Shown: one piece after another, positions 6,582-60,397 of the stretch
Layout of the letters: each line of letters begins with the position of its first letter
Position numbering within the stretch: the stretch's first letter is position 1
Assembly: GCA_043761585.1 (NCBI GenBank)
Contig: JAYUNN010000035.1
Coordinates: forward strand, 32,706 to 96,705
DNA length: 64,000 nucleotides
Direction: 5' to 3'
From: a bacterium
GTDB taxonomy: Bacteria; Patescibacteriota; JACMRA01; JAYUNN01
Made by a program: the position numbers and the translations under genes
The notes under the pieces: generated by a model
What the model saw: the letters and a program-made list of their open reading frames with translations, nothing else
Databases searched by the model: none
Told to the model about the DNA's origin: nothing

Positions 6582-6705
6582 TTATTATGGAAGAGGGTAA
6601 ATACCCCGAAGCTTGCTTCGCACTCTTTTCATAACAAGCTTGGCGAACGAAGTGAGCTTTTCCGTTAGGAATACCTAGTAGCTTGCTGCGAGGAAGCTTA
6701 TTTTT
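6582..6705 (+). repeat. copy 1 of a ~124-bp structured repeat (partner at 47445..47569)
   Basis: About 85-90% identical by eye to 47445..47569, in the same orientation. It contains the hairpin gggtaaataccc and a 13-bp stem (6608-6620 with 6648-6660) that includes three G:U pairs when read on the plus strand. Confidence 0.8.
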
Positions 6706-9267: not shown

Positions 9268-9420
9268 TATTTTCCACTTTGCCTTAGCATTTGGACTTCT
9301 TAGCTGCGCAAAACCTTTCACCGCAAGCAAAGCTAAACTTTTTATTATTTCAAGACTCAGATCGCATACTCTGCCATTCCAAGTAAGGTGTTTTTGGAGA
9401 AAGAAGTGGAGAAAGTGGGC
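9268..9420 (+). repeat. intergenic element family X, copy
   Basis: Shares ordered blocks with the other X copies: ttccactttgccttagcatttggact, caagcaaagc, atttcaagactcagatcgc and aagtaaggtgtttttgg, then a purine-rich tail. Terminal pairing is tccacttt with aaagtgg. Confidence 0.6.
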
Positions 9421-20330: not shown

Positions 20331-20460
20331 TTGGAAATTTAGACTCAAGGCATGATTTTATAGTCAAGATTCCCCAAAATAGTTTTAAAAATATTTTAAA
20401 TTCAAATACTAAATCTCCCTGAGACAAGATACTTTATCAAAAAGTAAATCGTGTAATTTT

Positions 20461-20585
20461 TACACTCCGTCCCACCATTTAAGCTCCTGAGCTCCACAAA
20501 TTCGCTTTGCTTATTTATTCTGAGTTCAAACAGTTGCGCAGTAATTACGTTTCAAACGAGGTGTTTTTTGTAGCAGTAGAAGCTT
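20461..20585 (+). repeat. intergenic element family X, copy
   Basis: Blocks tacactccgtcccacc, ctcctgagctccacaaattcgctttgc, gagttcaaacagttgcgcag and caaacgaggtgttttttgtagc. It starts 130 nt downstream of the murF stop. Confidence 0.6.
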
Positions 20586-43692: not shown

Positions 43693-44241
43693 ATGGGAAC
43701 TCTTACGCATTTTAAAAGATCTGCAACTACCCCGAAAGCTTCGCCTTCACCCCTAAATAGGGGTACGAGTACTGCCACTACAAATAGTACCCCTTTCAAG
43801 GGGTCAGAGCGGAGCTTTCGGGGTTGTGCCGAGCTTGCACCAGAGGTAATAGCTCTATTTCAAAGAACTCACTATAACAAAAGTCTTTTAAATAGGTCGA
43901 AGAACATGTCGCGAACCATGACAAAAGCTGAAAGTCGAATCTGGTTTGATTTGCTATCCAAAAAACAGTTACTCGGTTTAAAATTTATCAAGCAGAAAAT
44001 CGTTTTTAGTTATATATTAGACTTTTACTGCTCTGAGCTGTCTCTAGCCATAGAAATCGATGGAGAAAGCCACGATGCAAAGCTTGATTATGACAAAACT
44101 CGAGACAATTACATTAAGGCTTGTGGTATAAATGTTATAAGATTAAGTAATCATGATGTTTTTGGGAATTTAGAAGGGGTTAGGGAGTTTTTGATTGAGG
44201 AGGCGGGGAAGATTAAAAGTTTTAAAATTAATAAAACATAA
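43693..44241 (+). CDS. DUF559 (Vsr/PD-(D/E)xK-like) endonuclease-domain protein
   Basis: MTKAESRIWFDLLSKKQLLGLKFIKQKIVFSYILDFYCSELSLAIEIDGESHD...IRLSNHDV is the DUF559 core. The first ~45 codons are encoded by hairpin-rich DNA, so the true start is uncertain (next ATG at 43906). Confidence 0.7.
   Translation: MGTLTHFKRSATTPKASPSPLNRGTSTATTNSTPFKGSERSFRGCAELAPEVIALFQRTHYNKSLLNRSKNMSRTMTKAESRIWFDLLSKKQLLGLKFIKQKIVFSYILDFYCSELSLAIEIDGESHDAKLDYDKTRDNYIKACGINVIRLSNHDVFGNLEGVREFLIEEAGKIKSFKINKT
43729..43824 (+). other. ~95-nt three-way-junction-like structured element at the 5' end of the DUF559 ORF
   Basis: An outer 15-16 bp stem (43730-43744 with 43809-43823, one U:G on the plus strand) encloses hairpins acccctaaataggggt (43749-43764) and acccctttcaaggggt (43789-43804). 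Confidence 0.6.
43786..43830 (+). repeat. left arm of an inverted repeat bracketing the DUF559/HEPN-motif cassette
   Basis: agtacccctttcaaggggtca (43786-43806) is the exact reverse complement of 44748-44768. Roughly 15 of the next 24 inward positions also match. Confidence 0.75.
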
Positions 44242-44723: not shown

Positions 44724-44768
44724 GCTACAACCCCCAAGCCTTCGGCTTGACCCCTTGAAAGGGGTACT
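44724..44768 (-). repeat. right arm of the inverted repeat bracketing the cassette
   Basis: tgaccccttgaaaggggtact (44748-44768) is the reverse complement of 43786-43806. The hairpin aagccttcggctt is adjacent. Confidence 0.75.
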
Positions 44769-47444: not shown

Positions 47445-47569
47445 TTATTATGGAAGAGGGTAAATACCCCGAAGCTTGCTTCTCACCCTTTTCATAACAA
47501 GCTTAGTAAACGAAGTGAGCTTTTCCATTAGGAATACCTCGTATTTTGGCTCTCGAGGAAGCTTATTTT
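47445..47569 (+). repeat. copy 2 of the ~124-bp structured repeat (partner at 6582..6705)
   Basis: Same orientation as copy 1 and about 85-90% identical by eye. It lies 45 nt after the nrdA stop and 36 nt before the AT-rich gene at 47605. Confidence 0.8.
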
Positions 47570-50589: not shown

Positions 50590-50755
50590 TTTACATTCTC
50601 TACATCGCTCCAGTATCGGACTCTTTCCTTTTTACAAAGTCTCACTTGATAAAGAAGGCTATGATCTTTTTACTTGTTCCGAGTTCAAACAGTTCTGCAG
50701 CAATACTGCTCTAAACGAGGTATTTTTTGGGAAGAGGGCGGGGAAATATAAAAAT
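50590..50755 (+). repeat. intergenic element family X, copy
   Basis: Blocks ccagtatcggactctttcctttttacaaagtctcacttg, gagttcaaacagttctgcagcaatactgc and taaacgaggtattttttgggaagagggcgggg. Its orientation is opposite to the flanking minus-strand genes. Confidence 0.6.
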
Positions 50756-50779: not shown

Positions 50780-51415
50780 TTACTTTGTTCGGTTATTGAC
50801 AGGCATAAACTGGAATTGTAAACCATAAAAGATTAGCATCTCAAATAGGCTAAATCCCAAAATAAATACCAAGCCCTGCCAGCCAGGATTTAGTTTGCCC
50901 AGCACATCGAGCGGAGCAGTAAAAATATCCCAAGAGTTTAGCCGCACAAATCTACCTAAATAAATCCCAAAGCTAATCACTCCAAAATACAGTATTTGGA
51001 AAAATATTTTAGGTTTAAATTCTTTAAAAAGTAGCTGGGTTTGGCTGTAAAATAAGACTATTCCGATGAGAAAAAGTCCAAGCATGCTTAGTAAATTTCC
51101 TAAATCTGGGCTAATTGCACTATTTTTTAATAACTCCCAAAATTGAAGTGGTGTACCACCTCGATCGTAAATATTTGCACTTGGGTCAGTCGCAAAAATA
51201 TGAACTAAGTCGGTGGTTAGGTAAATACTGTTTGGTAAAAATAAAAACATCACCAACAAATTTAAGTAGTATAAAGATTTGAGGGACTTTCTTTGAGATA
51301 ATTTGGCTAAAGACCAAAAAATATACGGTACAATTGCCAAAGCAACGTTCCAAATTATCCAATATTTAATGATAAAGTTGGCTAAAAAATTCATATACTT
51401 CAAGATATGTTTCAA
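50780..51415 (-). CDS. polytopic membrane protein (possibly DUF1361-like), last gene of the pspA operon
   Basis: 211 aa with about 6 TM. NVALAIVPYIF and LPNSIYLTTDLVHIF resemble what I recall of DUF1361. It starts 16 nt after the AAA+ gene stop. Confidence 0.5.
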   Translation of the reverse strand: MKHILKYMNFLANFIIKYWIIWNVALAIVPYIFWSLAKLSQRKSLKSLYYLNLLVMFLFLPNSIYLTTDLVHIFATDPSANIYDRGGTPLQFWELLKNSAISPDLGNLLSMLGLFLIGIVLFYSQTQLLFKEFKPKIFFQILYFGVISFGIYLGRFVRLNSWDIFTAPLDVLGKLNPGWQGLVFILGFSLFEMLIFYGLQFQFMPVNNRTK

Positions 51416-51431
51416 AAACTAATATCAAAAT

Positions 51432-53039
51432 TTATTCTAGTAAATCAATGTCTGTAACTTCGGCTAGGGCTGCAGCAATTTGCTTATTTATGGTATTTAT
51501 ATCAATCGAAGAGCGAAAAGCGTGTATAATTTGCACAAAATCTTTAACAGCCAAATTATCGCCATTTAATATTTCCACTCGCTTGCATTTAATCAAAAGG
51601 CTTTCGATATCAGCTCCCGAACGAATTTCAACCAAATCTGATTCGTTTAAAGAGTTTAAAAATGAGTTAATATCGACTTTTAAACCAATTTTTTTAGCTA
51701 AAACCTGAAATAAAACCAGTTTTTCGGCTATATTTTTGGGGTAAAATAGTGGAATATGGACTTCAGCTCGACCTTGGCGTTTGAGATCCACTGGCAGCAG
51801 CTCAGGTCTAGAAGTCAGCAGCATCCAAATTAATTTACCTCGATTGGTGGTATCACCCATAGTTTGAGCCAAGCTTGCAAAAACTCGTTTGTCAGTACCG
51901 CTGTCACCATTTTCGTCTCGATTACCCAGAGCTGCGTCAGCCTCATCAATCATGATCACCACTGGTGCTAAATTCTGCAAAGTAGTCAATACTTTTTCCC
52001 AGTTGGCCTCGGTGCTACCGACCCAGCGATCTCGAAAATTTTTGAGTTTCACTACAGGTACACCAGCTTCACCCGCAAAACACTCGGCTAAAAATGATTT
52101 GCCTGTGCCTACTGGTCCGCAAATCAAATATCCCATCGGCACAGCCTCCAGGCGACCGTCTTTTAAAAGTTTAGCATCTTCTCGCAGTCTTTTTTTAGCC
52201 TTATCTTGTCCAGCAAGATTATCAAGGGTGCGAGCGGTTTCAACAAATTCAAAAAATTGGGCATTTTCTTTTTCGATCAACTCTTTTTTAACTTTAGACA
52301 AGTCGTCAATCACTATTTCTTTATCTTTAAAATTTAAAAATAGCTCAAAAATAGCTTTGCGGTTTAGGCCATTGATTAGTTTAGAAATCGTAATTTGGCT
52401 CAGGTCAGTCTTAATTTTAAAATATTTTAAAAACTTTTGAACTGTTTTTTTACGCTCATCTTGATCTGGAAAATCGATCAATATTTTTGATATATCAGTG
52501 TTGGAGCTGATTTGTGGGGAAATAAAATTTAGATTTGAGGTGGTTAAAACCACGGTTATGTTTTGCTGCAAAATACTTTTATTTTTGGCCCATTCTAAAA
52601 GAGTTACTAGCACTTTTTTTTGCTCTAGCTCGAGTGTGGATAGTTCTTGGGCTGGGATCAAAAGCTCGGCCCAAGACACAATCAGGGCCACACTTTTTTG
52701 CGTGCCGACTATTTTTAAAAATCGATCAAGTAACCTAAAGATTTCACCAGAATCCGCAGGCAGTCTATCCATATAGGTTGTACCTTTTAGGCTATCATAG
52801 CCACTAAGTAATTTTTGGAATTCAAGTTTTGAGCTTTCATCTCGAAATTTTAACCCAGTTCCAATGTTAAATTCGAGTACAATTTCACGTGAACCAAACA
52901 CAGTTTGGCTTAGATACGCACTTAATTCTTGGTCGACTTGATCGGTATCTTCAAATAAATCGTCGATGTTGCCATGCAGTATAAAAACGGACTTTTGTTT
53001 ATTTAGATAGTTTTCTTTCAGGGTTTCAAGCCAAGACAT
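51432..53039 (-). CDS. tandem AAA+ ATPase: degenerate N-terminal AAA-like half plus an active classical-clade AAA domain
   Basis: Walker A GPVGTGKS, Walker B VIMIDEAD, sensor/SRH region LLTSRPELLPVDLKRQGRAEVHIPLFYP. The N-terminal half keeps the AAA topology (VFILHGNIDD, VALIVSWAELL, VVLTTSN, IDFPDQDERKK) but lacks a P-loop. Confidence 0.85.
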   Translation of the reverse strand: MSWLETLKENYLNKQKSVFILHGNIDDLFEDTDQVDQELSAYLSQTVFGSREIVLEFNIGTGLKFRDESSKLEFQKLLSGYDSLKGTTYMDRLPADSGEIFRLLDRFLKIVGTQKSVALIVSWAELLIPAQELSTLELEQKKVLVTLLEWAKNKSILQQNITVVLTTSNLNFISPQISSNTDISKILIDFPDQDERKKTVQKFLKYFKIKTDLSQITISKLINGLNRKAIFELFLNFKDKEIVIDDLSKVKKELIEKENAQFFEFVETARTLDNLAGQDKAKKRLREDAKLLKDGRLEAVPMGYLICGPVGTGKSFLAECFAGEAGVPVVKLKNFRDRWVGSTEANWEKVLTTLQNLAPVVIMIDEADAALGNRDENGDSGTDKRVFASLAQTMGDTTNRGKLIWMLLTSRPELLPVDLKRQGRAEVHIPLFYPKNIAEKLVLFQVLAKKIGLKVDINSFLNSLNESDLVEIRSGADIESLLIKCKRVEILNGDNLAVKDFVQIIHAFRSSIDINTINKQIAAALAEVTDIDLLE

Positions 53040-53085
53040 ATTTAGTTTAAAGTAGATTAGCAGTTTTTTATAGCGTTAAGGCATT

Positions 53086-54870
53086 TTAGAAATAACTAGC
53101 AATTACCTCCAAAAGCTTTTGTATATCACTCGTATCACCAAACTGAACTCGGGTATCACTAGCTCTGGCAATAGCATTTAAGGCATTTAGATCAGCATCT
53201 TTACCATAAGCGATCGGAATAACTAAAATTGGGTTATCACCTTTTTTGATCTTGCTTAGCAGGTCAGTCACATCGGCTAAACTGTGCGTGCTATTGGTGT
53301 CGCGGCCGTCACTAAGTAAAATAATAGCTCGAATACTTTGATCTTTAGGATCGGTATTTTTATCTAAAGTATCTAAGGTTTGATACAAGCCGTCATAAAG
53401 TGCAGTCGATCCATCGGCAACTACCTGATCTAAATCATTGTTTATTTTGGCTTGATTGGACTCAAGTGGTGCCAGCGCCGATAATTCTTTAACCTCAGTA
53501 TTAAAAATCTTCAAACCGACTCGATTGGCAATAGGCAATTTTTCCACAAAAGTTCGCAGTGCTTTGACCGCATTTTGAAGCGGCAGACCATCCATCGAGC
53601 CAGAAGTATCTAAAAGCATGAAAACTTCACTTTTCTTTTTGACCAGATTCCAGCTCTGCTGAATTGCCGAAATCACTTCAGGAGTCGGCAAATTTAGAGT
53701 AGTTTTTGGTTGGCTTGGATCTACGCCTAGTTCACCTGTTAGAGGATAGCCTAGCGGCACTTTATCATTTACTGGCCTAAATCCATTTTCCAGTATTTTT
53801 TGCTGGACTTTTTCACTTAAAACATAACTTGTGAAGACTTTAGCGGCCGCTGCTTGCTCGTCACTGACCCAGCTAGCTTTTGGAATCGCAAACGGATGAT
53901 CATGAATTAAAGTACCTTCTTTAGGGTAAAGCGCGATTAGTTTTTCAGTTGGTTTAGTGTCCGTTTTCCCTTGATTGATATAGATTAGATCGTTTTCTTC
54001 CAGAGCTACAAAATCTAAATATTGAGGACCTTGAGCGATATATTCTTTAAATTCAGTGGTTCGACTCGAGTAATGTTTGATCAAATTTTCAATGCTTCGC
54101 ACACCTTCTTTGACTTTTTGGTCGGCGATTGTGACTTGAGTTAATTGTTCTTGATTTGGGTTTCCAGACAAATATTTACTGCTGGCGTAAAATTCACCAA
54201 TTAAAGTAGATAATCCAGTAGAACTAATTTGCGGATCGGTATGTCCGTAGTAAACTTTTTTGCGCGTCAAAGTGGGGGAGTAACTTAACCAGCCATTTGG
54301 GTCATTTAAGACATCTATCAGCTCTTGCCAGCCAATTTCTTTGCCGGGATTTTTAGCCTTAATCAGATTTAGCCTACTTTCCCAGATAGCGATTACGACT
54401 GGGGTATTAGCGGTGGCTATAGCTTCGTCCATTTTAAAAACTTCTTTTCCAGTTTCAAAATTCACCAATTGTAGCCAAGTAGACACGCTTGGTTCAAAAA
54501 TAGTTGGCCGCTCGACTTGATCCGTTTTGGAGCCATTGATAGCGCTGACTATGTCGGTCCTTACCGTACCAGACGAGCCTGATTTACCAGTTATTTTGAT
54601 CTTTTTTTCACCATTTTTGAGTTTCTCACCAGTTATGGGATTGATGCTTTTTTCAAAAGAATTATTAAAATCTTGAATGGCGTCTTTAAGATAGCTTTCA
54701 GATTCTGGGGCGTAAATTATCGAGATTTCAGTGGTGGCTCGATTATCGCTGCCAGATATGGTACCAAAGTTAAAATTGGCAAAATTTGGTACCAGCTGTG
54801 AAATCAAAATTGCTATAGCAATAACTGCAAAGGCTATAAATACAGCTAAAGAAGATTTATTATTAGTCAT
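53086..54870 (-). CDS. membrane-anchored extracytoplasmic protein: solute-binding-protein-like domain fused to a C-terminal vWA domain
   Basis: N-terminal anchor (LAVFIAFAVIAIAILISQL). The vWA MIDAS is VFMLLDTSGSMDG, followed by ILLSDGRDT. The ~400-aa region upstream is SBP-like (family recalled as substrate-binding and VWA domain-containing protein). Confidence 0.7.
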   Translation of the reverse strand: MTNNKSSLAVFIAFAVIAIAILISQLVPNFANFNFGTISGSDNRATTEISIIYAPESESYLKDAIQDFNNSFEKSINPITGEKLKNGEKKIKITGKSGSSGTVRTDIVSAINGSKTDQVERPTIFEPSVSTWLQLVNFETGKEVFKMDEAIATANTPVVIAIWESRLNLIKAKNPGKEIGWQELIDVLNDPNGWLSYSPTLTRKKVYYGHTDPQISSTGLSTLIGEFYASSKYLSGNPNQEQLTQVTIADQKVKEGVRSIENLIKHYSSRTTEFKEYIAQGPQYLDFVALEENDLIYINQGKTDTKPTEKLIALYPKEGTLIHDHPFAIPKASWVSDEQAAAAKVFTSYVLSEKVQQKILENGFRPVNDKVPLGYPLTGELGVDPSQPKTTLNLPTPEVISAIQQSWNLVKKKSEVFMLLDTSGSMDGLPLQNAVKALRTFVEKLPIANRVGLKIFNTEVKELSALAPLESNQAKINNDLDQVVADGSTALYDGLYQTLDTLDKNTDPKDQSIRAIILLSDGRDTNSTHSLADVTDLLSKIKKGDNPILVIPIAYGKDADLNALNAIARASDTRVQFGDTSDIQKLLEVIASYF

Positions 54871-54966
54871 ATTTGGTCGTATCGTGTGTAAATTTATGCT
54901 TTAGATTCTGTTAGTACTAGATTTATCGCTACAAGCTACGCACTAGTCAAGTAAAATAATTTTTAT

Positions 54967-55833
54967 TTATGTTTTTAGACCTATTTTTGTGGGAGCTACT
55001 TTATCATCAACGGACAGTTTTTGCTCCACACTGAGCATTTCCGACTCAAATCGCTCAATATCAGCCACGACCGACTCTAAACTATCGGTTAAAACCTGGC
55101 TTTCATCCACCAAATCCTGCTGATCTTTGAGTCCGACTTTGGTTAAATAGCTATAGGATTGCTCCATACTACTCAAAATTCGAGCCAAATATGAATCGAT
55201 ACGCTCTAATCTCATACCGACGCTTTGAACCAAAAGTAGCTGATTTTGTTTTAAAAAAATGACTTTCTCGTATTCTTTTTTAGCCACCGGATCTGTCACC
55301 TGAGCGATTTGATTTTTTAAATCATTAATTTCAAGTATGCTTTGATTTAGGTCTTCAGTTTTCAAAAATTTTCGAGCCAACTCTTCTTGGCGGGATAGAT
55401 CTACTAATTGAGCCACCATTTTATTGAGTGATTCAAGTACAAAAGCATCAAAAGACTGGCCGACCGAGTCTAAATATTTTAAAATTTCTTGAATTTTACT
55501 CAGATTTTGCTTAGCTTTATTTAAGTCAAACTTAACTTCCTCAAAAGAGGATTGTAAGAGCTGCTTGTTAATGATCTCAAAAAGTAAATTTATAGATTTT
55601 AAACTCTGTTTTTGGTCGCTATTATTACCCAATACTTGTTTGATAAAATCGGGATTATTGGTGTCGAACCAGGCAGAAATAACCGCCATAAATAGTGCCA
55701 GCGGTATCATAATGACTCCAACAGTTGGTAAAAACAGGGCAATTATTATCCCAAAAGCCAAAATCACTATCGGAATTGGGCGACCTAGTGCTACTAGAAA
55801 TACTTTGGTAAAATTTTGGAAACCATTTGCCAT
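54967..55833 (-). CDS. two-TM protein with a cytoplasmic coiled-coil domain (XpaC/TelA-like by architecture)
   Basis: Two adjacent TM helices (PIVILAFGIIIALFLPTVGVIMIPLALFMAVISAWF) precede ~220 aa of heptad-rich helix. Its ATG overlaps the pspA stop (TAATG). Confidence 0.6.
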   Translation of the reverse strand: MANGFQNFTKVFLVALGRPIPIVILAFGIIIALFLPTVGVIMIPLALFMAVISAWFDTNNPDFIKQVLGNNSDQKQSLKSINLLFEIINKQLLQSSFEEVKFDLNKAKQNLSKIQEILKYLDSVGQSFDAFVLESLNKMVAQLVDLSRQEELARKFLKTEDLNQSILEINDLKNQIAQVTDPVAKKEYEKVIFLKQNQLLLVQSVGMRLERIDSYLARILSSMEQSYSYLTKVGLKDQQDLVDESQVLTDSLESVVADIERFESEMLSVEQKLSVDDKVAPTKIGLKT

Positions 55834-56570
55834 TAACCAATAGTCTTAGTGGTGATAGACTCAGCAGCCTCATGAGTTTTAGAGTTAGCTTTAGTGGACG
55901 AAGAGATGTCAATATTCATTTCTGCAGCAAATTGTTTATACAAATCTTGAGCTTGAATTTCCTCGGCTTTCTTTTCTAGCTTAATATCAGCCATGTCTGG
56001 TGTTTTCGAAGCTATGATGAGTTTAGCTTCATCTTGAGCGGCCTGTTTATTTAGTTTTTCGAGCATTTCGTCGTTACTATATGCCACATCGCCCACTTCG
56101 TAGGTTTGAAATAATTCTGCAAGCTCACCTTTTAGCTTAGATACTTTACTGTTATCGATTGCATCTTTGATTTTTTCAGTTTCTTGCTTGATTTTTCGCA
56201 CTTGGGCGTCACGCAGTTCTTCCATAGTTTGGAGTCCAGTTTGAGCTGCTTTGAGTGATTCTGCGATTTTTAGCTTTTGGGTTATATTGCGTTGAAGCTG
56301 TAGAGCAATATCTTGACCGATAGCGTCTTCGCCTGACATAGCCGCCGCTTTGAGCTTGGTTCGGAGATTAGCTTCGGTTTTGATTGATTCATTTTGCTCT
56401 CTTTCTAGTAAAATTACCGCGCCTTGGGCCTTAGCCAAACCCTGATTCATTTTGGGAATCTGGTCGCGCATCTCGCGGATATTATTTTCTAAAATAGTAA
56501 TTGGGTCCTCGGCTGCGCTTAAAAATTTATTGAAGAAGGCTTGAATTAGTCGCGAGAGTCGGTTAAACAT
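55833..56570 (-). CDS. pspA: PspA/IM30 family protein (bacterial ESCRT-III superfamily)
   Basis: MFNRLSRLIQAFFNKFLSAAEDPITILENNIREMRDQIPKMNQGLAKAQG is the canonical PspA/IM30 N-terminus, and the rest is a long coiled coil. Confidence 0.85.
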   Translation of the reverse strand: MFNRLSRLIQAFFNKFLSAAEDPITILENNIREMRDQIPKMNQGLAKAQGAVILLEREQNESIKTEANLRTKLKAAAMSGEDAIGQDIALQLQRNITQKLKIAESLKAAQTGLQTMEELRDAQVRKIKQETEKIKDAIDNSKVSKLKGELAELFQTYEVGDVAYSNDEMLEKLNKQAAQDEAKLIIASKTPDMADIKLEKKAEEIQAQDLYKQFAAEMNIDISSSTKANSKTHEAAESITTKTIG

Positions 56571-56576
56571 AAAGTA

Positions 56577-56592
56577 TCAGATTATAATCTGA
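56577..56592. promoter_or_regulatory. 16-bp perfect palindrome between the putative pspA -10 box and the start codon
   Basis: TCAGATTATAATCTGA. The minus-strand candidate promoter is TTGGAC (56616-56621), an 18-nt spacer, then TATAGT (56592-56597). The palindrome itself contains TATAAT. Confidence 0.35.
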
Positions 56593-56632
56593 CTATATTT
56601 GCACTTAGAGTTTTTGTCCAATTTTAAATCAA

Positions 56633-56660
56633 AAAAAATCCTGAGGTTAAACTCAGGAAA
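56633..56660 (-). terminator. rho-independent terminator separating the upstream gene from the pspA operon
   Basis: Stem tcctgag/ctcagga (7 bp, 6-nt loop), followed on the minus strand by a T8 run. Confidence 0.7.
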
Positions 56661-56689: not shown

Positions 56690-57628
56690 TTACTTGGTTT
56701 TAGATGCTTTTTTACGCATATTTAGGACATATAAAGCTATTCCAGCAATCAGTGCAATACTTATTACTGCACCAGCACCATATAACAAGTTGTTATTTTC
56801 CACAGTTGGTTTTTCAACAGTAGTTTTACTTGAGTTTGGACTCGCTTCCACATTTTGAGCATTTAAAGAAGCGGATTTACTGACTTCATTTTTACCTATT
56901 TCTAGCGCTGCTGGAGTGGTAGTGGTGGCAGTTTGAGACTTGATCAGAGCTTGATTGGTTTCTAAGGCTGCGATATCAGGTGCATTTTCTTTGTTGGTGG
57001 GTAAGGTTACTGCTGATTCGTCTGCGTTACCGACGTTGATTTTCCAGCTGATCTGGTTGGCATCAAAACCACTTGGGAAAAATAGTCGACCAGAACCATA
57101 AAGTACAGACCCAGAAGTAGGTGCATTAGCTTTCAATGCGACTTTGATACTAATTTTGGCTGGAGTCGCTGCAGGTATCATGCCATCGGCGCAGCCGCCT
57201 TCGGGTCTAACTTTGCACTCAGATTGAGGTGAAATTCTGATTTTCAAAGTGTCTCCGTCGTTGTAAACAGCATCAGAAACATTAAATTCAGTGGTTTTAG
57301 CACCTTCTGCAGGTTTTTTAGTAGCGTAATCAATCGGTGAAGTCTCAGTAATTGATTTGACTTCAAGTAAATCAGAGGCCTCAGATCCGGCTAATTTTTC
57401 TAAAGATAGCTCGAAATATCCAGGAGCTGTACTAGATGAGGTATTTTCATAACTATAATTGTAGATCGCTTCTGGAGCTGCAGCAGAAAGCACGTCATCA
57501 TAGCGACCTATATCTGCCTTGTATTCAGCTTGTACAAAAGTTGAGCTAGATAGACTCAGGGCTGAGACACCAAAAGCTAGTATAGATAAAACGATTATTG
57601 ACTTAAATTTATTGTTATTTTTGTGCAT
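56690..57628 (-). CDS. secreted protein with a C-terminal TM anchor
   Basis: Signal peptide (SIIVLSILAFGVSALSLSSSTFVQA) and a C-terminal helix plus basic tail (GAVISIALIAGIALYVLNMRKKASKTK). Confidence 0.6.
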   Translation of the reverse strand: MHKNNNKFKSIIVLSILAFGVSALSLSSSTFVQAEYKADIGRYDDVLSAAAPEAIYNYSYENTSSSTAPGYFELSLEKLAGSEASDLLEVKSITETSPIDYATKKPAEGAKTTEFNVSDAVYNDGDTLKIRISPQSECKVRPEGGCADGMIPAATPAKISIKVALKANAPTSGSVLYGSGRLFFPSGFDANQISWKINVGNADESAVTLPTNKENAPDIAALETNQALIKSQTATTTTPAALEIGKNEVSKSASLNAQNVEASPNSSKTTVEKPTVENNNLLYGAGAVISIALIAGIALYVLNMRKKASKTK

Positions 57629-57669: not shown

Positions 57670-58824
57670 TTAAAAACTAGGCAAGCCTTTGTTTATTTCC
57701 CTAACTTTGGCTACATTTTGGTTGTGTTCGTTGTTGTCTTTACCAAAATACATTTTACCACTTCGGTCGCTAACAAAGAATAAATAGTCGTTTGTACCAG
57801 GCTCTAGTGCCGCTACCAGACTGTCTAAACTCGGATTGGAGATCGGCCCAATTGGAAATCCAGTCACTACATAAGTGTTGTAGCCAGTTTTATATTTGCT
57901 GTTACCCCAATTTAAATCACCGTCTAGACCCACCCCCTTTTTACGATCTACTCCGTACCAGACTGTTGGATCGGCTTGCCAGCGTATATTTTGGTTCACT
58001 CGATTGAGATATACTTTAGCCACTTGCCGTCTTTCTACAGTCAAATCAGACTCATTAACTAAAGCTTTAATATAATTTCTACCAACCTCGCGCTCAACTA
58101 CGGAAGCTAAGATAATTTGCTGATATAGTTTTTCTTTGGCTATTTTCGGGTCTTGATCAAAACTGGACCGATTTTTTGACCAATATTTGTTGGAAAAGTT
58201 TTTTAATACCTTGGCAGTCACTATGTCGGCTTTTGAACCTTTGAAAAAGCTATAGGTATCAGGAAATAAATAACCCTCCAGATAATATTTAGGACAGTTA
58301 TTATAAATTTCACCGTATTTGCAGTCAGTTCTAACTGGTGGTAAAAATTCGTATTTTTCAGATTCAAAATTTTGTGGAACCTGGATATAATCTAGAAAAT
58401 CTTTACTTGAAATGACACTAGCTTTTTCTAGTTTGGTCGCAATGTCTTCGGCCGTATCGCCCTCGATAAAAGAAATCGTGACAGTGTTTTCTTCAGGACC
58501 AGCTTTTTGAGCGTTGATTTGCCATAAAATGTCAGCTGGCTTGGCTGGAAGATCTAGCTCATAAACCCCAGCTTTTAGGTTTGGAACCGTACTATATTTA
58601 CTGATAAATGGCAAAAAATCCGCATTATTTATGATTTTATCGTCTTGGAGTTTTGTAGATAAAGTGGTTAAAGTTTCACCATTTTTAATTTCAAGTTTGT
58701 ATTTTCCAGTCGGCGACTGTGCTGGAGTCGCAAAAACACCATTGTAGCCGTAAAATACAACCCAACCAACCAACCCCAAAACCAGGAATGTAATAATAAT
58801 TTTTAGAAAGACAATTGATTTCAT
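57670..58824 (-). CDS. mltG: endolytic murein transglycosylase MltG (YceG-like)
   Basis: N-terminal TM, ILASVVEREVG, YLNRVNQNIRWQADPTV, YNTYVVTGFPIGPISNP. Confidence 0.85.
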   Translation of the reverse strand: MKSIVFLKIIITFLVLGLVGWVVFYGYNGVFATPAQSPTGKYKLEIKNGETLTTLSTKLQDDKIINNADFLPFISKYSTVPNLKAGVYELDLPAKPADILWQINAQKAGPEENTVTISFIEGDTAEDIATKLEKASVISSKDFLDYIQVPQNFESEKYEFLPPVRTDCKYGEIYNNCPKYYLEGYLFPDTYSFFKGSKADIVTAKVLKNFSNKYWSKNRSSFDQDPKIAKEKLYQQIILASVVEREVGRNYIKALVNESDLTVERRQVAKVYLNRVNQNIRWQADPTVWYGVDRKKGVGLDGDLNWGNSKYKTGYNTYVVTGFPIGPISNPSLDSLVAALEPGTNDYLFFVSDRSGKMYFGKDNNEHNQNVAKVREINKGLPSF

Positions 58825-60229: not shown

Positions 60230-60397
60230 ACTTTCCACCTCGTCCTGGCATTTCCACTCCTGAGCTCCCCAAAACTTTGCTTTGTACGAAAAAGGGCGAG
60301 TTTTCATTATTTTTTTCAAAGTTTAAATAGTTTGCTACTCATCAATTCGCTTCAAATAAGTTGTTTTTTTTGCCGAGAAGATGGAAAGAAGATGGAT
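60230..60397 (+). repeat. intergenic element family X, copy
   Basis: Blocks ctttccacctcgtcctggcatttccactcctgagctccccaaaactttgctttg, tttttttcaaagtttaaatagtttgctactcatcaattcgc and caaataagttgttttttttgccgagaagatggaaag. Terminal pairing is ctttccacc with gatggaaag. Confidence 0.6.

What the first reader, a model, noticed from the sequence alone, without database searches (positions are those of the whole stretch)
50780..56570. Five-gene operon coupling PspA (ESCRT-III superfamily) to a classical-clade tandem AAA+ ATPase, an extracytoplasmic SBP-vWA protein and two membrane proteins
**Seen in the sequence.** Five co-directional minus-strand genes have short gaps. The pspA stop and the next start overlap as TAATG, and the remaining gaps are 96, 46 and 16 nt. 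The unit is insulated upstream by a strong terminator (56633-56660) and followed downstream by a 238-nt gap carrying a repeat element.

The gene order is:

- PspA/IM30.
- A 2-TM protein with a long coiled coil (XpaC/TelA-like architecture).
- A membrane-anchored solute-binding-like domain fused to a vWA domain with an intact MIDAS (DTSGS).
- An AAA+ protein with a degenerate first half and an active second half carrying classical-AAA hallmarks (GPVGTGKS, IMIDEAD, SRPELLPVDLKRQGRAEVHIPLFYP).
- A 6-TM protein.

**Established knowledge.** PspA/Vipp1 are bacterial ESCRT-III homologues. In archaea and eukaryotes, ESCRT-III polymers are remodelled by the classical AAA ATPase Vps4/CdvC.

**Inference.** This could be an envelope-sensing and membrane-remodelling module. 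An outside ligand or adhesion sensor (SBP-vWA) and a membrane coiled-coil adaptor would be coupled to an ATPase-driven PspA polymer cycle. I do not know of this five-gene combination as a described system.
Basis: partly seen in the sequence, partly recalled or inferred. Interest (0 to 1): 0.8.

Follow-up and report, generated by a model that had tools for sequence, protein, structure and literature searches.

The report
PspA operon with Cdc48-like ATPase
A candidate-phyla bacterium carries a conserved four-gene cassette linking the membrane-repair protein PspA, a two-pass membrane coiled-coil partner, a cell-surface binding protein and a Cdc48-like unfoldase; it is a new variant of a system already predicted by comparative genomics in 2024 but never tested in the laboratory.

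Summary
Five co-directional minus-strand genes sit at 50780-56570 with the stated junctions and domains.

- **Conserved unit.** Only four genes form a conserved cassette: PspA, a 2-TM coiled-coil protein, SBP-vWA and a tandem AAA. DUF1361 follows the ATPase only in the closest relative checked.
- **Prior description.** The core is not new. Ravi et al. 2024 (PMC11237479) described bacterial PspA linked to an "inactive-classical-AAA + classical-AAA" ATPase, a membrane-anchored "TM+Snf7" protein, and an SBP(PBPB+OmpA)/ABC transporter.
- **Linkage.** In 45 well-flanked loci of ATPase orthologues, 39 carry PspA and/or the membrane partner on the same strand. They span Balneolaceae, Acidobacteriota, Myxococcota and Planctomycetota.
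- **Membrane partner.** The window's 2-TM protein is homologous to that partner. I found no Snf7, TelA or XpaC signal in it.
- **ATPase.** It folds like Cdc48/p97 D1-D2, with a dead D1 and no MIT domain. It is not a Vps4 member.
- **New here.**
  - The SBP-vWA replacement, with no ABC transporter.
  - SBP-vWA pairs with the same membrane-partner family in Chloroflexota-type loci that lack PspA and the ATPase.
  - The ATPase-linked PspAs share a conserved C-terminal KT[IV]G tail, and the partners share a basic tail.

**Verdict:** new variant of a known, experimentally untested kind.

The parts
56639..56658 (-). Terminator-like hairpin (TCCTGAG-TTTAAC-CTCAGGA followed by T8). It ends the upstream gene and insulates the unit.
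56592..56620 (-). Promoter-like site TGGACA-17-TATAGT, 21 nt upstream of the pspA ATG. It is a consensus match only.
   Evidence: Promoter-like sites are not enriched over shuffles in this region (28 found against 25.5 expected), so this is weak evidence.
55833..56570 (-). PspA/IM30 (ESCRT-III superfamily), 245 aa. It has an N-terminal amphipathic helix alpha0 and a C-terminal 'AEMN...linker...TKTIG' tail; KTIG are the last four residues (nt 55836-55847).
   Evidence: PF04012 scores 42.7 bits against a cut-off of 33.9. Residues 1-149 align to solved Vipp1/PspA chains, E 4e-5. The C-terminal motif is shared with ATPase-linked PspAs of other phyla.
54967..55833 (-). Membrane partner ('TMCC'), 288 aa. 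It has an N-terminal 2-TM hairpin (about aa 10-57), a cytoplasmic all-helical coiled-coil domain, and a basic tail KIGLKT. The start codon overlaps the pspA stop (TAATG).
   Evidence: There is no Pfam or NCBIfam family. The family has 89 representative clusters. It is homologous to the conserved ~295-aa partner C1 of other phyla: hhalign probability 95%, E 3.6e-8, controls below 2%, with bridging HMM hits down to 4e-17. The AF2 model has pLDDT 75 and is all helical. The positive-inside count places both termini in the cytoplasm.
53086..54870 (-). Membrane-anchored extracytoplasmic SBP-vWA protein, 594 aa. It has an N-terminal signal anchor (aa 8-27), a type-2 periplasmic-binding-protein fold (SBP_bac_11/8), and a vWA domain with a complete MIDAS (DTSGS 421-425, T489, D521).
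   Evidence: Full-length orthologues at 54-58% identity occur in Anaerolineae and other Chloroflexota.
51432..53039 (-). Tandem (type II) classical AAA ATPase, 535 aa. D1 is degenerate: 'ILHGN' replaces Walker A (aa 20-24) and 'IVSWAE' replaces Walker B (aa 120-125). D2 is active: Walker A GPVGTGKS 308-315, pore loop 1 RWVG 338-341, Walker B IDEAD 364-368, invariant GDSGT 378-382, and the SRH with two Arg at 410-426. There is no N-terminal MIT or double-psi-barrel domain, no TM segment and no protease domain.
   Evidence: The AF2 model has pLDDT 84. Foldseek aligns the full length to p97/Cdc48/Rix7/NVL/AFG2 D1-D2, E 3e-19, TM-score up to 0.62.
50780..51415 (-). DUF1361 polytopic membrane protein, 211 aa with a TTG start or 204 aa with an ATG start. 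It is a co-directional downstream neighbour that may be co-transcribed here, but it is not a conserved member of the cassette.
   Evidence: PF07099 scores 88.5 bits. It is present downstream of the ATPase only in the 70%-identical relative L092. In L082 and L093 a tRNA U5-methyltransferase sits there, and in L083 and L084 opposite-strand genes.
50670..50729 (.). Copy of an intergenic repeat (78% identical to 20511-20570) in the 238-nt gap downstream. It marks the end of the gene string and is not part of the system.

Best explanation
This is a lineage-specific version of a widespread bacterial module: PspA, a membrane partner, and a Cdc48-like ATPase. The lineage is candidate-phyla-radiation and Dojkabacteria-like.

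**Shown**

- pspA and the gene for a 2-TM coiled-coil partner are translationally coupled.
- The partner's coiled-coil domain faces the cytoplasm.
- The partner family is also found next to the ATPase gene in other phyla, often with overlapping stop and start codons.
- The ATPase has the fold of a D1-D2 classical AAA unfoldase. D1 is dead. D2 is intact, with an aromatic pore loop and arginine fingers.
- The cassette order PspA, partner, SBP-vWA, ATPase is kept in divergent relatives.

**Inferred**

- The partner anchors or nucleates PspA (ESCRT-III-like) polymers at the membrane.
- The hexameric ATPase engages the conserved C-terminal tails and threads subunits through its D2 pore. These tails are KT[IV]G on PspA and a basic R-V-R-like tail on the partner.
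- This disassembles or recycles the polymer. It would be a functional analogue of Vps4 that arose from a Cdc48-like ATPase.
- The surface-exposed SBP-vWA reports or exploits an envelope or ligand state through the partner's TM hairpin. It stands in the position held by SBP-OmpA plus an ABC importer in Acidobacteriota, Myxococcota and Planctomycetota.

DUF1361 is only a neighbour.
For: **Conserved linkage**

- Of 84 other loci of ATPase orthologues, 45 have at least 9 kb upstream and at least 6 kb downstream. In these, 34 carry PspA, 37 carry the partner, and 39 carry either, all on the same strand.
- Chance expectation is about 1% per locus. That estimate rests on general knowledge of one to three pspA genes per genome.
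- Minimal forms exist: PspA, C1, AAA in L057, and PspA, AAA in L046.
- The four-gene order recurs in L082, L083 and L084 (ATPase 49-55% identical) with unrelated flanks. SBP-vWA, AAA is also kept in L093.

**Partner homology and topology**

- hhalign gives 95% probability against the C1 partner.
- Bridging HMM hits reach E 4e-17.
- K+R counts are 177 and 214 in the flanks against 30 in the hairpin.

**ATPase**

- The fold is tandem AAA, E 3e-19 to p97/Cdc48.
- By sequence it is closest to VAT/p97/NVL, E 5e-33.
- Pore loop, Walker B and SRH residues are invariant across the family.

**C-terminal motifs**

- K[TS][IVL]G occurs in the last 45 aa of 38 of 50 linked PspAs and 18 of 18 short PspA-like proteins. 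Shuffled tails average 0.43, with a maximum of 3.
- E. coli PspA lacks the motif, and so does the L091 PspA, which has no adjacent ATPase.
- Partner tails match [RK][VILT][RK] in 40 of 91, against 1.3 expected.

**SBP theme**

- Acidobacteriota carry SBP+OmpA plus an ABC permease and ATPase.
- Riflebacteria (L070) carry SBP(+OmpA-like) plus a separate secreted vWA protein with DTSGS.
- Some archaeal ESCRT loci carry a ProX-type SBP (PMC10936438).

**Independent proposal**

Ravi et al. 2024 independently proposed ATP-dependent membrane remodelling for the core system.
Against: - There is no experimental evidence for any step, and no transcript data.
- SBP-vWA orthologues (56-58% identical) in five other loci have no PspA or ATPase nearby. 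The contigs that carry a name are attributed to Anaerolineae or Roseilinea. SBP-vWA therefore has a function independent of them, and its position in the cassette could reflect insertion by gene transfer.
- Six of the 45 well-flanked ATPase loci, mostly Rhodothermales, show neither PspA nor the partner within 10 kb. The 46%-identical relative L085 has two unrelated unknown genes upstream instead.
- Some linked PspAs lack the KT[IV]G tail: Thermoanaerobaculia, and several Acidobacteriota with KTIA.
- The motif counts are not phylogenetically independent.
- The partner shows no detectable ESCRT-III or Snf7 similarity, so it is not shown to be a polymer subunit.
- A 96-nt gap containing a TTGACT...GATAAA-like site precedes SBP-vWA. 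The unit may not be a single transcript.
Confidence: 0.5

Rival explanations
1. The ATPase is a membrane-protein extraction or quality-control machine. It would be a Cdc48/Msp1-like unfoldase that pulls the 2-TM partner, or mis-inserted or damaged envelope proteins such as the SBP fusion, out of the membrane. PspA would only seal or stabilise the bilayer during extraction and would not itself be the substrate.
For: - The fold and sequence are closest to Cdc48/p97, which extract membrane proteins.
- In Acidobacteriota the partner gene is the one directly abutting the ATPase, with stop/start distances of 0 to -14 nt.
- The partner carries its own conserved C-terminal tail.
- PspA is a known membrane-stabilising effector (established knowledge).
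Against: - The PspA tail motif is at least as well conserved as the partner tail.
- Minimal loci with only PspA and the ATPase exist: L046, and the Planctomycetota loci where the two are adjacent.
- There is no protease or degradation partner in the cassette.
Confidence: 0.2
2. The cluster is two functionally separate units brought together by genome compaction or gene transfer. One is a PspA, partner (and ATPase) stress module. The other is an SBP-vWA surface adhesion or ligand-capture protein that works with the partner family or alone. On this view there is no signalling from SBP-vWA to the ATPase or PspA.
For: - SBP-vWA is 56-58% identical to orthologues that lack PspA and the ATPase nearby. 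That is far closer than the ATPase is to any non-CPR relative (about 40%), which suggests horizontal acquisition.
- A 96-nt gap with a possible internal promoter precedes the gene.
- In L090 a 1.8-kb insert separates the partner and SBP-vWA.
Against: - SBP-vWA sits between the partner and the ATPase in L082, L083 and L084, and directly upstream of the ATPase in L093, with tight spacing of 0-66 nt to the ATPase.
- In three of five non-CPR loci SBP-vWA is immediately followed by a member of the same partner family.
- Non-orthologous SBP fusions and a secreted vWA protein recur in PspA-ATPase operons of other phyla.
Confidence: 0.2
3. The cluster is an anti-phage or conflict system built around an Iet-like AAA ATPase and a vWA protein.
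For: - The ATPase domain matches IetA models in PADLOC (72.5 bits) and NCBIfam IteA (63 bits).
- vWA domains occur in several conflict systems (PMC7159879, listed).
Against: - The matches cover only the generic AAA domain (aa 300-512) and lie far below the family cut-off (63 against 510).
- There is no IetS protease and no other defence component. The other four proteins have no credible PADLOC hit.
- The neighbours are housekeeping genes such as YceG/MltG.
- The conserved partners are PspA and transporters, not nucleases or proteases.
Confidence: 0.03

Closest known systems
Bacterial 'PspA + inactive-classical-AAA/classical-AAA ATPase' operons with a membrane-anchored 'TM+Snf7' protein and an SBP(PBPB+OmpA)/ABC transporter. 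Described by comparative genomics in Ravi et al. 2024, mSystems (PMC11237479). Examples: Clostridium sp. BNL1100 AEY64320/21, Cand. Handelsmanbacteria OGG56892.1, Archangium gephyra AKJ06548.1.
   Same: - PspA of the same subfamily (C2 profile, E 9e-78).
- An orthologous ATPase: about 40% identity over the full length, with the same dead-D1/live-D2 architecture.
- A homologous membrane partner.
- An extracytoplasmic SBP-fusion protein in the operon.
- My survey reproduces the published gene orders in Acidobacteriota and Archangium.
   Different: - The SBP is of another family (SBP_bac_8/11, not NMT1/PBPB). It is fused to vWA rather than to the peptidoglycan-binding OmpA domain.
- There is no ABC permease or ATPase anywhere in the 64-kb window.
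- The cassette is compacted to four genes.
- The paper does not mention vWA (0 occurrences).
- The host is a candidate-phyla-radiation bacterium.
Archaeal and eukaryotic ESCRT-III / Vps4 (CdvB / CdvC)
   Same: - An ESCRT-III-superfamily polymer-former is encoded next to a classical-clade AAA ATPase.
- The ESCRT-III-like proteins have short conserved C-terminal tails after a flexible linker. In position these are reminiscent of MIM motifs.
- Some archaeal ESCRT loci also include an SBP (ProX; PMC10936438).
   Different: - The ATPase has no MIT domain and no single-AAA architecture.
- It scores 47.8 bits against a cut-off of 650 on the CdvC model.
- No Vps4 chain is among the 60 best PDB sequence matches listed or the 50 best fold matches.
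- Current reviews state that Vps4-like ATPases are absent from bacteria (PMC7619361; PMC10936438).
Cdc48 / p97 / VAT / NVL / Rix7 type II classical AAA unfoldases
   Same: - The D1-D2 tandem fold aligns over about 600 columns (E 3e-19, TM-score up to 0.62).
- These are the best sequence matches (E 5e-33).
- Pore loop, Walker B and SRH arginines are present in D2.
   Different: - There is no N-terminal double-psi-barrel substrate or adaptor domain.
- D1 lacks Walker A and B.
- It scores 71 bits against a cut-off of 803 on the CDC48 model.
- At 535 aa it is much shorter.
- The genomic partners are PspA and membrane proteins.
E. coli PspF-PspABC and B. subtilis LiaIH phage-shock systems
   Same: - PspA is the effector.
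- A small integral membrane partner recruits or anchors it (PspB/C, LiaI).
- An AAA+ protein is functionally tied to PspA (PspF).
   Different: - PspF is an NtrC-type sigma-54 activator that PspA inhibits. It is not a classical-clade unfoldase.
- There is no PspB/C, LiaI or Toastrack homologue here.
- E. coli PspA lacks the C-terminal KT[IV]G tail.

Membership tests
PspA/IM30 (PF04012; ESCRT-III superfamily) | Score above the Pfam gathering threshold over the whole domain | tested here: met
   42.7 bits against a cut-off of 33.9; residues 2-218 match profile positions 3-214 of 220.
PspA/IM30 (PF04012; ESCRT-III superfamily) | N-terminal amphipathic helix alpha0 and the alpha1-alpha3 hairpin align to solved PspA/Vipp1 structures | tested here: met
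   Residues 1-149 align to Vipp1/PspA chains 8qbv, 6zvr and 7o3w from residue 3, E 4e-5 to 1e-4.
Ravi et al. 2024 PspA / tandem classical AAA system | PspA gene and ATPase gene co-directional in one neighbourhood | tested here: met
   True in the window. True in 34 of 45 well-flanked orthologue loci.
Ravi et al. 2024 PspA / tandem classical AAA system | ATPase with two AAA domains, the N-terminal one inactive | tested here: met
   - Pfam AAA matches only aa 305-430.
- D1 has HGN in place of the P-loop and WAE in place of Walker B.
- The whole chain superposes on p97 D1-D2.
Ravi et al. 2024 PspA / tandem classical AAA system | Membrane-anchored helical partner (the 'SIG+TM+Snf7' protein) in the operon | tested here: met
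   - The window's 288-aa protein is homologous to cluster C1.
- C1 occupies the 'TM+Snf7' position in the Acidobacteriota and Archangium operons.
- hhalign gives 95% probability, E 3.6e-8. Bridging hits are and gene orders.
Ravi et al. 2024 PspA / tandem classical AAA system | SBP with PBPB+OmpA domains plus an ABC permease and ATPase (the longer operon form) | tested here: not met
   - The window's SBP is of the SBP_bac_8/11 type, fused to vWA.
- It does not match the C8 profile (E 0.047).
- No ABC components occur in the 64-kb window.
Vps4 / CdvC | N-terminal MIT domain followed by a single AAA domain | tested here: not met
   The N-terminal 260 residues form a degenerate AAA domain, not MIT.
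Vps4 / CdvC | Score above the NCBIfam CdvC equivalog cut-off | tested here: not met
   47.8 bits against a cut-off of 650. This is lower than the FtsH (77), CDC48 (71) and PAN (56) models.
Vps4 / CdvC | Phylogenetic placement of the AAA domain inside the Vps4/meiotic clade | not tested
   No reference set of Vps4, katanin, Msp1, FtsH and Cdc48 sequences was available for a tree. Only ranked similarity is available.
Cdc48 / p97 / VAT | D1-D2 tandem classical AAA fold | tested here: met
   Foldseek E 3e-19 over about 600 aligned columns, TM-score up to 0.62.
Cdc48 / p97 / VAT | N-terminal double-psi-barrel/beta-clam domain and nucleotide-binding D1 | tested here: not met
   - The protein starts directly with D1 (beta1 at aa 18-23).
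- D1 has no Walker A.
- The CDC48 model scores 71 bits against a cut-off of 803.
FtsH | N-terminal TM segments and a C-terminal M41 zinc protease | tested here: not met
   Only the AAA core matches (aa 195-459 to model positions 84-356 of 598; 77 bits against a cut-off of 600). There is no Peptidase_M41 hit.
ESCRT-III / Snf7 (for the 2-TM partner) | Detectable sequence, profile or fold similarity to Snf7, CHMP, PspA or Vipp1 | tested here: not met
   - hhalign of the family against a PspA alignment gives probability 0.6-1.4%.
- A 38-sequence profile against PDB finds no ESCRT-III chain at E <= 10.
- Neither Snf7 nor PspA is among the 25 families listed from Pfam scans of the 38 members (192 families matched at E <= 1).
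- Foldseek of the pLDDT-75 model finds nothing at E < 0.06 and no ESCRT-III.
- Very remote homology is not excluded.
TelA / XpaC (for the 2-TM partner) | Match to the TelA or XpaC (Halogen_Hydrol) Pfam families | tested here: not met
   No such hit for the window protein at E <= 1, and neither family is among the 25 listed for the 38 relatives.
vWA domain with a functional MIDAS | DxSxS ... T ... D metal-ion-dependent adhesion site | tested here: met
   DTSGS at 421-425, T489 in GSTALY, and D521 in LLSDG. The VWA match is E 3e-16.
MoxR-type AAA+ / vWA chaperone pairs | The ATPase belongs to the MoxR/AAA_3/AAA_5 clade and pairs with a cytoplasmic vWA protein | tested here: not met
   The ATPase is classical clade (PF00004) with no MoxR-family hit. 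The vWA lies behind an N-terminal signal anchor and is therefore predicted to be extracytoplasmic.
Iet anti-phage system | IetA ATPase above cut-off together with an IetS protease | tested here: not met
   IteA scores 63 bits against a cut-off of 510. The PADLOC IetA match covers the AAA domain only, and there is no IetS.
DUF1361 (PF07099) | Score above the Pfam gathering threshold | tested here: met
   88.5 bits against a cut-off of 25. The gene is not conserved in the cassette.

The most novel reading that the evidence does not exclude
The 2-TM coiled-coil family would be a previously unrecognised transmembrane hub. Outside the cell it pairs with surface SBP-fusion proteins: SBP-vWA in CPR and Chloroflexota, SBP-OmpA elsewhere. 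Inside the cell it organises a bacterial ESCRT-III cycle.

In that cycle a Cdc48-derived ATPase with a dead D1 is recruited by MIM-like C-terminal tails. These are KT[IV]G on PspA and a basic tail on the hub. The ATPase would then disassemble PspA polymers.

This would be an independent bacterial counterpart of Vps4. It would contradict the current view that bacteria lack such an ATPase. It would also mirror the proposed origin of Vps4 from Cdc48 by loss of one ATPase domain.
Probability: 0.3. Interest if true: 0.8.

Novelty: new variant of a known kind. Interest (0 to 1): 0.55.

Why it matters
**The open question.** How bacterial ESCRT-III proteins (PspA, Vipp1) are taken apart and recycled is unresolved.

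- A 2025 review states that a Vps4-like ATPase appears absent in bacteria (PMC7619361).
- Makarova et al. 2024 confine ESCRT systems to archaea and eukaryotes (PMC10936438).
- The module surveyed here is conserved across phyla and consists of PspA, a membrane partner and a Cdc48-like ATPase. It was flagged only computationally, in 2024, and it is the most direct candidate for such an activity.

**What this locus adds.**

- It is a minimal four-gene form in a reduced CPR genome.
- It shows that the membrane partner also pairs with SBP-vWA independently of PspA.
- It supplies candidate recognition tails that can be tested by truncation or mutation.

**If the mechanism holds,** it would show convergent or parallel recruitment of classical AAA unfoldases to ESCRT-III polymers in bacteria and archaea. 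It would also link envelope or ligand sensing to membrane remodelling.

Tried and rejected
1. **TelA/XpaC-like identity of gene 2.** No Pfam or NCBIfam support.
2. **Gene 2 as a divergent Snf7/ESCRT-III, as labelled by Ravi et al.** hhalign against PspA, a profile against PDB, Pfam scans of 38 members and Foldseek of an AF2 model were all negative or only coiled-coil noise. I kept this as "not shown".
3. **DUF1361 as the fifth member.** Rejected from the neighbourhoods of relatives.
4. **Orthology of the window SBP with the SBP-OmpA (C8) of other phyla.** No profile match. I treat it as an analogous replacement.
5. **Defence-system reading.** PADLOC and NCBIfam give only generic AAA-domain similarity.
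6. **FtsH-like housekeeping protease.** No TM segments and no M41 domain.
7. **Metagenome scan with the broad partner alignment.** It failed because no stretch was conserved enough. The narrow alignment gave only three loci.
8. **Ycf46 lead.** UniRef names the myxobacterial orthologues "ycf46". Literature shows cyanobacterial Ycf46 is a stress-induced AAA ATPase of unknown mechanism. I could not test orthology for lack of a reference sequence, and no paper links Ycf46 to Vipp1 or PspA.
9. **L085 (ATPase 46% identical).** The two upstream genes (449 and 333 aa) match none of my profiles and have no credible Pfam family match (best E 0.027). They remain unexplained.
10. **L070 long ORF.** The 741-aa "SBP+vWA" ORF turned out to be a high-GC overlap artefact. 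The real genes are an SBP and a separate secreted vWA protein.

Full report
**1.

The ORF list shows five minus-strand ORFs at the stated coordinates. They are:

| Gene | Coordinates | Length |
|---|---|---|
| PspA | 55833-56570 | 245 aa |
| 2-TM helical protein | 54967-55833 | 288 aa |
| SBP-vWA | 53086-54870 | 594 aa |
| AAA | 51432-53039 | 535 aa |
| DUF1361 | 50780-51415 | 211 aa |

- Reading the junctions confirms the TAATG stop/start overlap between pspA and gene 2, and gaps of 96, 46 and 16 nt.
- A terminator-like hairpin with a T8 tail lies at 56639-56658. A TGGACA-17-TATAGT site lies at 56592-56620, just upstream of pspA.
- The 238-nt downstream gap carries a copy of an intergenic repeat. 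Positions 50670-50729 are 78% identical to 20511-20570.
- Pfam confirms PspA_IM30, VWA plus SBP_bac_11/8, a single AAA match at aa 305-430, and DUF1361. Gene 2 has no family.
- The MIDAS is complete: DTSGS 421-425, T489 and D521.

**2. The source organism**

- An independent assembly carries the identical locus.
- A 57%-identical ATPase is annotated as Candidatus Dojkabacteria.
- The window has about 36% G+C and small, tightly packed genes.
- A Patescibacteria/CPR origin is therefore likely, but it was not proven for this contig.

**3. The ATPase**

*Distribution.* It belongs to a large family. More than 7,800 proteins match at E <= 1e-10. Full-length orthologues of about 570 aa and about 40% identity occur in Balneolaceae, Myxococcota, Acidobacteriota, Planctomycetota and others.

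*Motifs (17-sequence alignment).*
- In D2 the Walker A, the NFR..G pore loop (with an aromatic Trp or Phe), the Walker B DEAD, a GDSG loop, and the SRH segment RP.L.P.DLKRQGR.E are invariant or nearly so.
- In the N-terminal half, an HGN-type motif replaces the P-loop and D.AE replaces Walker B.

*Fold.* An AlphaFold model has pLDDT 84. It superposes over about 600 columns on D1-D2 of p97/Cdc48, Rix7, NVL and AFG2, with E 3e-19 and TM-score up to 0.62.

*Sequence similarity.*
- The best solved relatives are VAT, p97, NVL and NSF (E 5e-33 to 1e-28). FtsH follows at 1e-17, and no Vps4 chain is in the top 60.
- NCBIfam scores are FtsH 77, CDC48 71, IteA 63, PAN 56 and CdvC 48 bits. All are far below their cut-offs.

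*Conclusion.* It is a type II classical AAA with a dead D1. It has no MIT or Cdc48-N domain, no TM segment and no protease. "Classical-clade tandem AAA" is right. "Vps4-like" holds only by analogy.

**4. Linkage to PspA is conserved and already published**

*Prior work.* Ravi et al. 2024 (PMC11237479) describe three things:
[quoted passage not shown] They propose ATP-dependent membrane remodelling comparable to Snf7/Vps4.

*My survey.* I examined 84 other loci of ATPase orthologues: 80 from GTDB species genomes and four from relatives found by protein identity. The published gene orders are reproduced:

| Lineage or locus | Gene order |
|---|---|
| Acidobacteriota | C15 > PspA > SBP(NMT1-type)+OmpA > ABC permease > ABC ATPase > C1 > AAA |
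| Myxococcota | PspA > SBP > C1 > ... > ABC ATPase > ... > AAA |
| Planctomycetota and a deltaproteobacterial MAG | PspA > AAA > ... > SBP-OmpA > permease > ABC ATPase > C1 |
| Balneolaceae | PspA > short PspA-C-half-like protein > C1 > enoyl-CoA hydratase > CNNM/CorC > AAA |
| L057 | PspA > C1 > AAA |
| L046 | PspA > AAA |

Among the 45 loci with at least 9 kb upstream and at least 6 kb downstream of the ATPase, 34 have PspA, 37 have C1 and 39 have either, always on the ATPase strand. The six without either are mostly Rhodothermales.

**5. Gene 2 is the conserved membrane partner**

- Its family is small. There are 89 representative clusters among 1.84 billion representatives, nearly all 260-300 aa.
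- Profile-profile comparison with C1 gives 95% probability, E 3.6e-8 over 210 columns. Five control families score below 2%.
- Distant members of the gene-2 family hit the C1 HMM at E down to 4e-17.
- C1 occupies the position of Ravi's "SIG+TM+Snf7".
- Across 89 members, K+R counts are 177 and 214 in the two flanks of the hydrophobic hairpin and 30 inside it. Both termini, and so the coiled-coil domain, are cytoplasmic.
- I could not confirm an ESCRT-III or Snf7 relationship. hhalign against PspA gives 0.6-1.4%. The PDB profile search finds only designed coiled coils. Pfam scans of 38 members give only coiled-coil noise. Foldseek of a pLDDT-75 model finds nothing better than E 0.06.
- TelA/XpaC is likewise unsupported.

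**6. What is specific to this locus**

- Three relatives whose ATPases are 49-55% identical keep the order PspA > partner > SBP-vWA > AAA, amid entirely different neighbours (L082, L083, L084). L093 keeps SBP-vWA > AAA.
- DUF1361 follows the ATPase only in the 70%-identical L092. Elsewhere the next gene is a tRNA methyltransferase or lies on the other strand. The conserved unit therefore has four genes, not five.
- The window contains no ABC transporter parts and no second PspA.
- The SBP does not match the SBP-OmpA profile.
- SBP-vWA is 54-58% identical over its full length to proteins of Anaerolineae, Caldilineae and other bacteria. That is much closer than the ATPase is to any non-CPR relative, which suggests horizontal acquisition.
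- In five such loci there is no PspA or tandem ATPase nearby.
- In three of those five (L086, L095, L096/97) SBP-vWA is immediately followed by a 241-aa 2-TM coiled-coil protein of the same partner family (E 1e-17, full-length match). It is preceded by a related membrane-anchored 340-aa protein, of which only the L086 member has a weak SBP_bac_11 hit.
- SBP-vWA plus partner is therefore a module in its own right. The partner family is the common element between surface SBP fusions and the PspA/ATPase pair.
- In a Riflebacteria locus (L070) the operon is AAA > PspA > SBP > a separate secreted vWA protein with DTSGS > SBPs > permease > ABC ATPase. A vWA link has thus arisen more than once.

**7. 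Conserved tails**

*PspA.*
- Alignment of ATPase-linked PspAs from six lineages shows "QFKxEMG", then a variable linker, then KT[IV]G (EKELGP/EKTLGP in Planctomycetota) close to the C-terminus. In the window KTIG are the last four residues.
- K[TS][IVL]G occurs in the last 45 residues of 38 of 50 linked PspAs and of all 18 short PspA-like proteins. Shuffled tails give a mean of 0.43 and a maximum of 3.
- Exceptions are Thermoanaerobaculia, Acidobacteriota variants with KTIA, and L082.
- E. coli PspA lacks the motif. So does the PspA of L091, where PspA > partner has no adjacent ATPase.

*Partner.* The partners end in a basic [RK][VILT][RK] tail in 40 of 91 cases, against 1.3 expected.

*Caveat.* These counts are not phylogenetically independent, and the controls are few. 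The tails are leads for recognition motifs, not demonstrated ones.

**8. Mechanism**

*Shown.*
- Conserved co-directional linkage.
- Translational coupling of pspA with the partner here, and of the partner with the ATPase in Acidobacteriota (stop/start distances 0 to -14 nt).
- Cytoplasmic orientation of the partner's helical domain.
- An intact substrate-threading D2.

*Inferred.*
- The partner anchors or nucleates PspA polymers.
- The ATPase hexamer recognises the C-terminal tails and extracts subunits, recycling the polymer.
- The surface SBP-vWA couples an envelope or ligand state to this cycle through the partner's TM hairpin.

*Rivals.*
- The ATPase extracts the partner or other membrane proteins, Cdc48/Msp1-like, with PspA only protecting the bilayer.
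- SBP-vWA is functionally independent of PspA and the ATPase.
- The cluster is a defence system. This is poorly supported: only generic AAA-domain similarity to IetA, and no IetS.

**9. Novelty and interest**

- It remains purely computational and little noticed. A 2025 review still says a Vps4-like ATPase "appears absent in bacteria" (PMC7619361). Makarova et al. 2024 confine ESCRT systems to archaea and eukaryotes, while deriving Vps4 from Cdc48 by loss of one ATPase domain (PMC10936438).
- The window contributes a compact CPR variant with SBP-vWA and no transporter. Neither vWA nor this pairing is mentioned in Ravi et al. or in any paper holding the terms searched.
- The survey adds the partner/SBP-vWA module and the C-terminal tails.
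- I rate it a new variant of a known kind, with moderate interest (0.55).

Noticed in passing
L086 9967-10566; L095 7846-8574; L096 7756-8481 (with SBP-vWA at L086 8001-9737, L095 6001-7749, L096 6001-7737): In non-CPR loci the SBP-vWA orthologue sits in a conserved triad: a 340-aa membrane-anchored protein (weak SBP_bac_11 hit in L086 only), then SBP-vWA, then a 241-aa 2-TM coiled-coil protein of the same family as the window's gene 2. L086 shares flanking genes with L096, and the related contigs that carry a name are attributed to Chloroflexota. No PspA or tandem ATPase is nearby. The L086 copy looks frameshifted, with the TM part in another frame.
   Followed up: partly
L006 6349-6804, L010 6370-6825 and 16 other Balneolaceae loci: A ~150-aa protein is encoded between PspA and the membrane partner. 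It is homologous to the C-terminal half of PspA only (hhalign 98.5%). It carries the same EMG...KT[IV]G tail in all 18 copies, so it may be a decoy or adaptor for the ATPase. A 121-aa ORF occupies the same position in L084 (3992-4357), but its relationship was not tested.
   Followed up: partly
L062 4222-4920 (cluster C15); also L057 and L071: A conserved ~232-aa protein with no Pfam family lies immediately upstream of pspA in Acidobacteriota and Thermoanaerobaculia versions of the operon. It has no counterpart in the window.
   Followed up: no
L085 4633-6980: A relative whose ATPase is 46% identical has two unknown genes upstream (449 and 333 aa) instead of PspA, the partner and SBP-vWA. They have no credible Pfam family match and match none of my profiles.
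   Followed up: partly
L090 3922-5757: In a close relative, a 1.8-kb stretch with almost no ORFs is inserted between the partner gene and SBP-vWA. The region after SBP-vWA does not show the expected ATPase start. This may be a mobile or non-coding insert, or decay of the cassette.
   Followed up: no
window 20459-20570, 50670-50729, 9271-9312, 60232-60273: A family of short intergenic repeats. D2 is 42 nt in three copies. D3 is 60 nt in two copies at 78% identity and lies adjacent to D2 at 20459-20570. Its nature is unknown.
   Followed up: no
window 6582-6685 and 47445-47548: A 104-nt direct repeat at 91% identity, with the copies 40.9 kb apart.
   Followed up: no
window 43726-43827 and 44727-44768: GC-rich inverted repeats: 41-42-nt arms at 80-83% complementarity, one pair 20 nt apart and another flanking 899 nt. 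No Rfam family matched at gathering score.
   Followed up: no
window 56690-57628 and 57670-58824: Two genes lie upstream of the cassette. One is a 312-aa protein with an N-terminal signal or TM segment, a C-terminal TM segment and no Pfam family. The other is YceG/MltG (E 2e-62). These are envelope-related neighbours, but they are not conserved next to the cassette in relatives.
   Followed up: partly
P0047 and P0101 (Stigmatella and Archangium orthologues of the ATPase): UniRef names these orthologues "AAA domain-containing protein ycf46". Cyanobacterial Ycf46 is a stress-induced AAA ATPase of unknown mechanism (bioRxiv 10.1101/2025.07.21.665879). If the proteins are orthologous, a Ycf46-Vipp1 connection would be worth testing.
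   Followed up: partly
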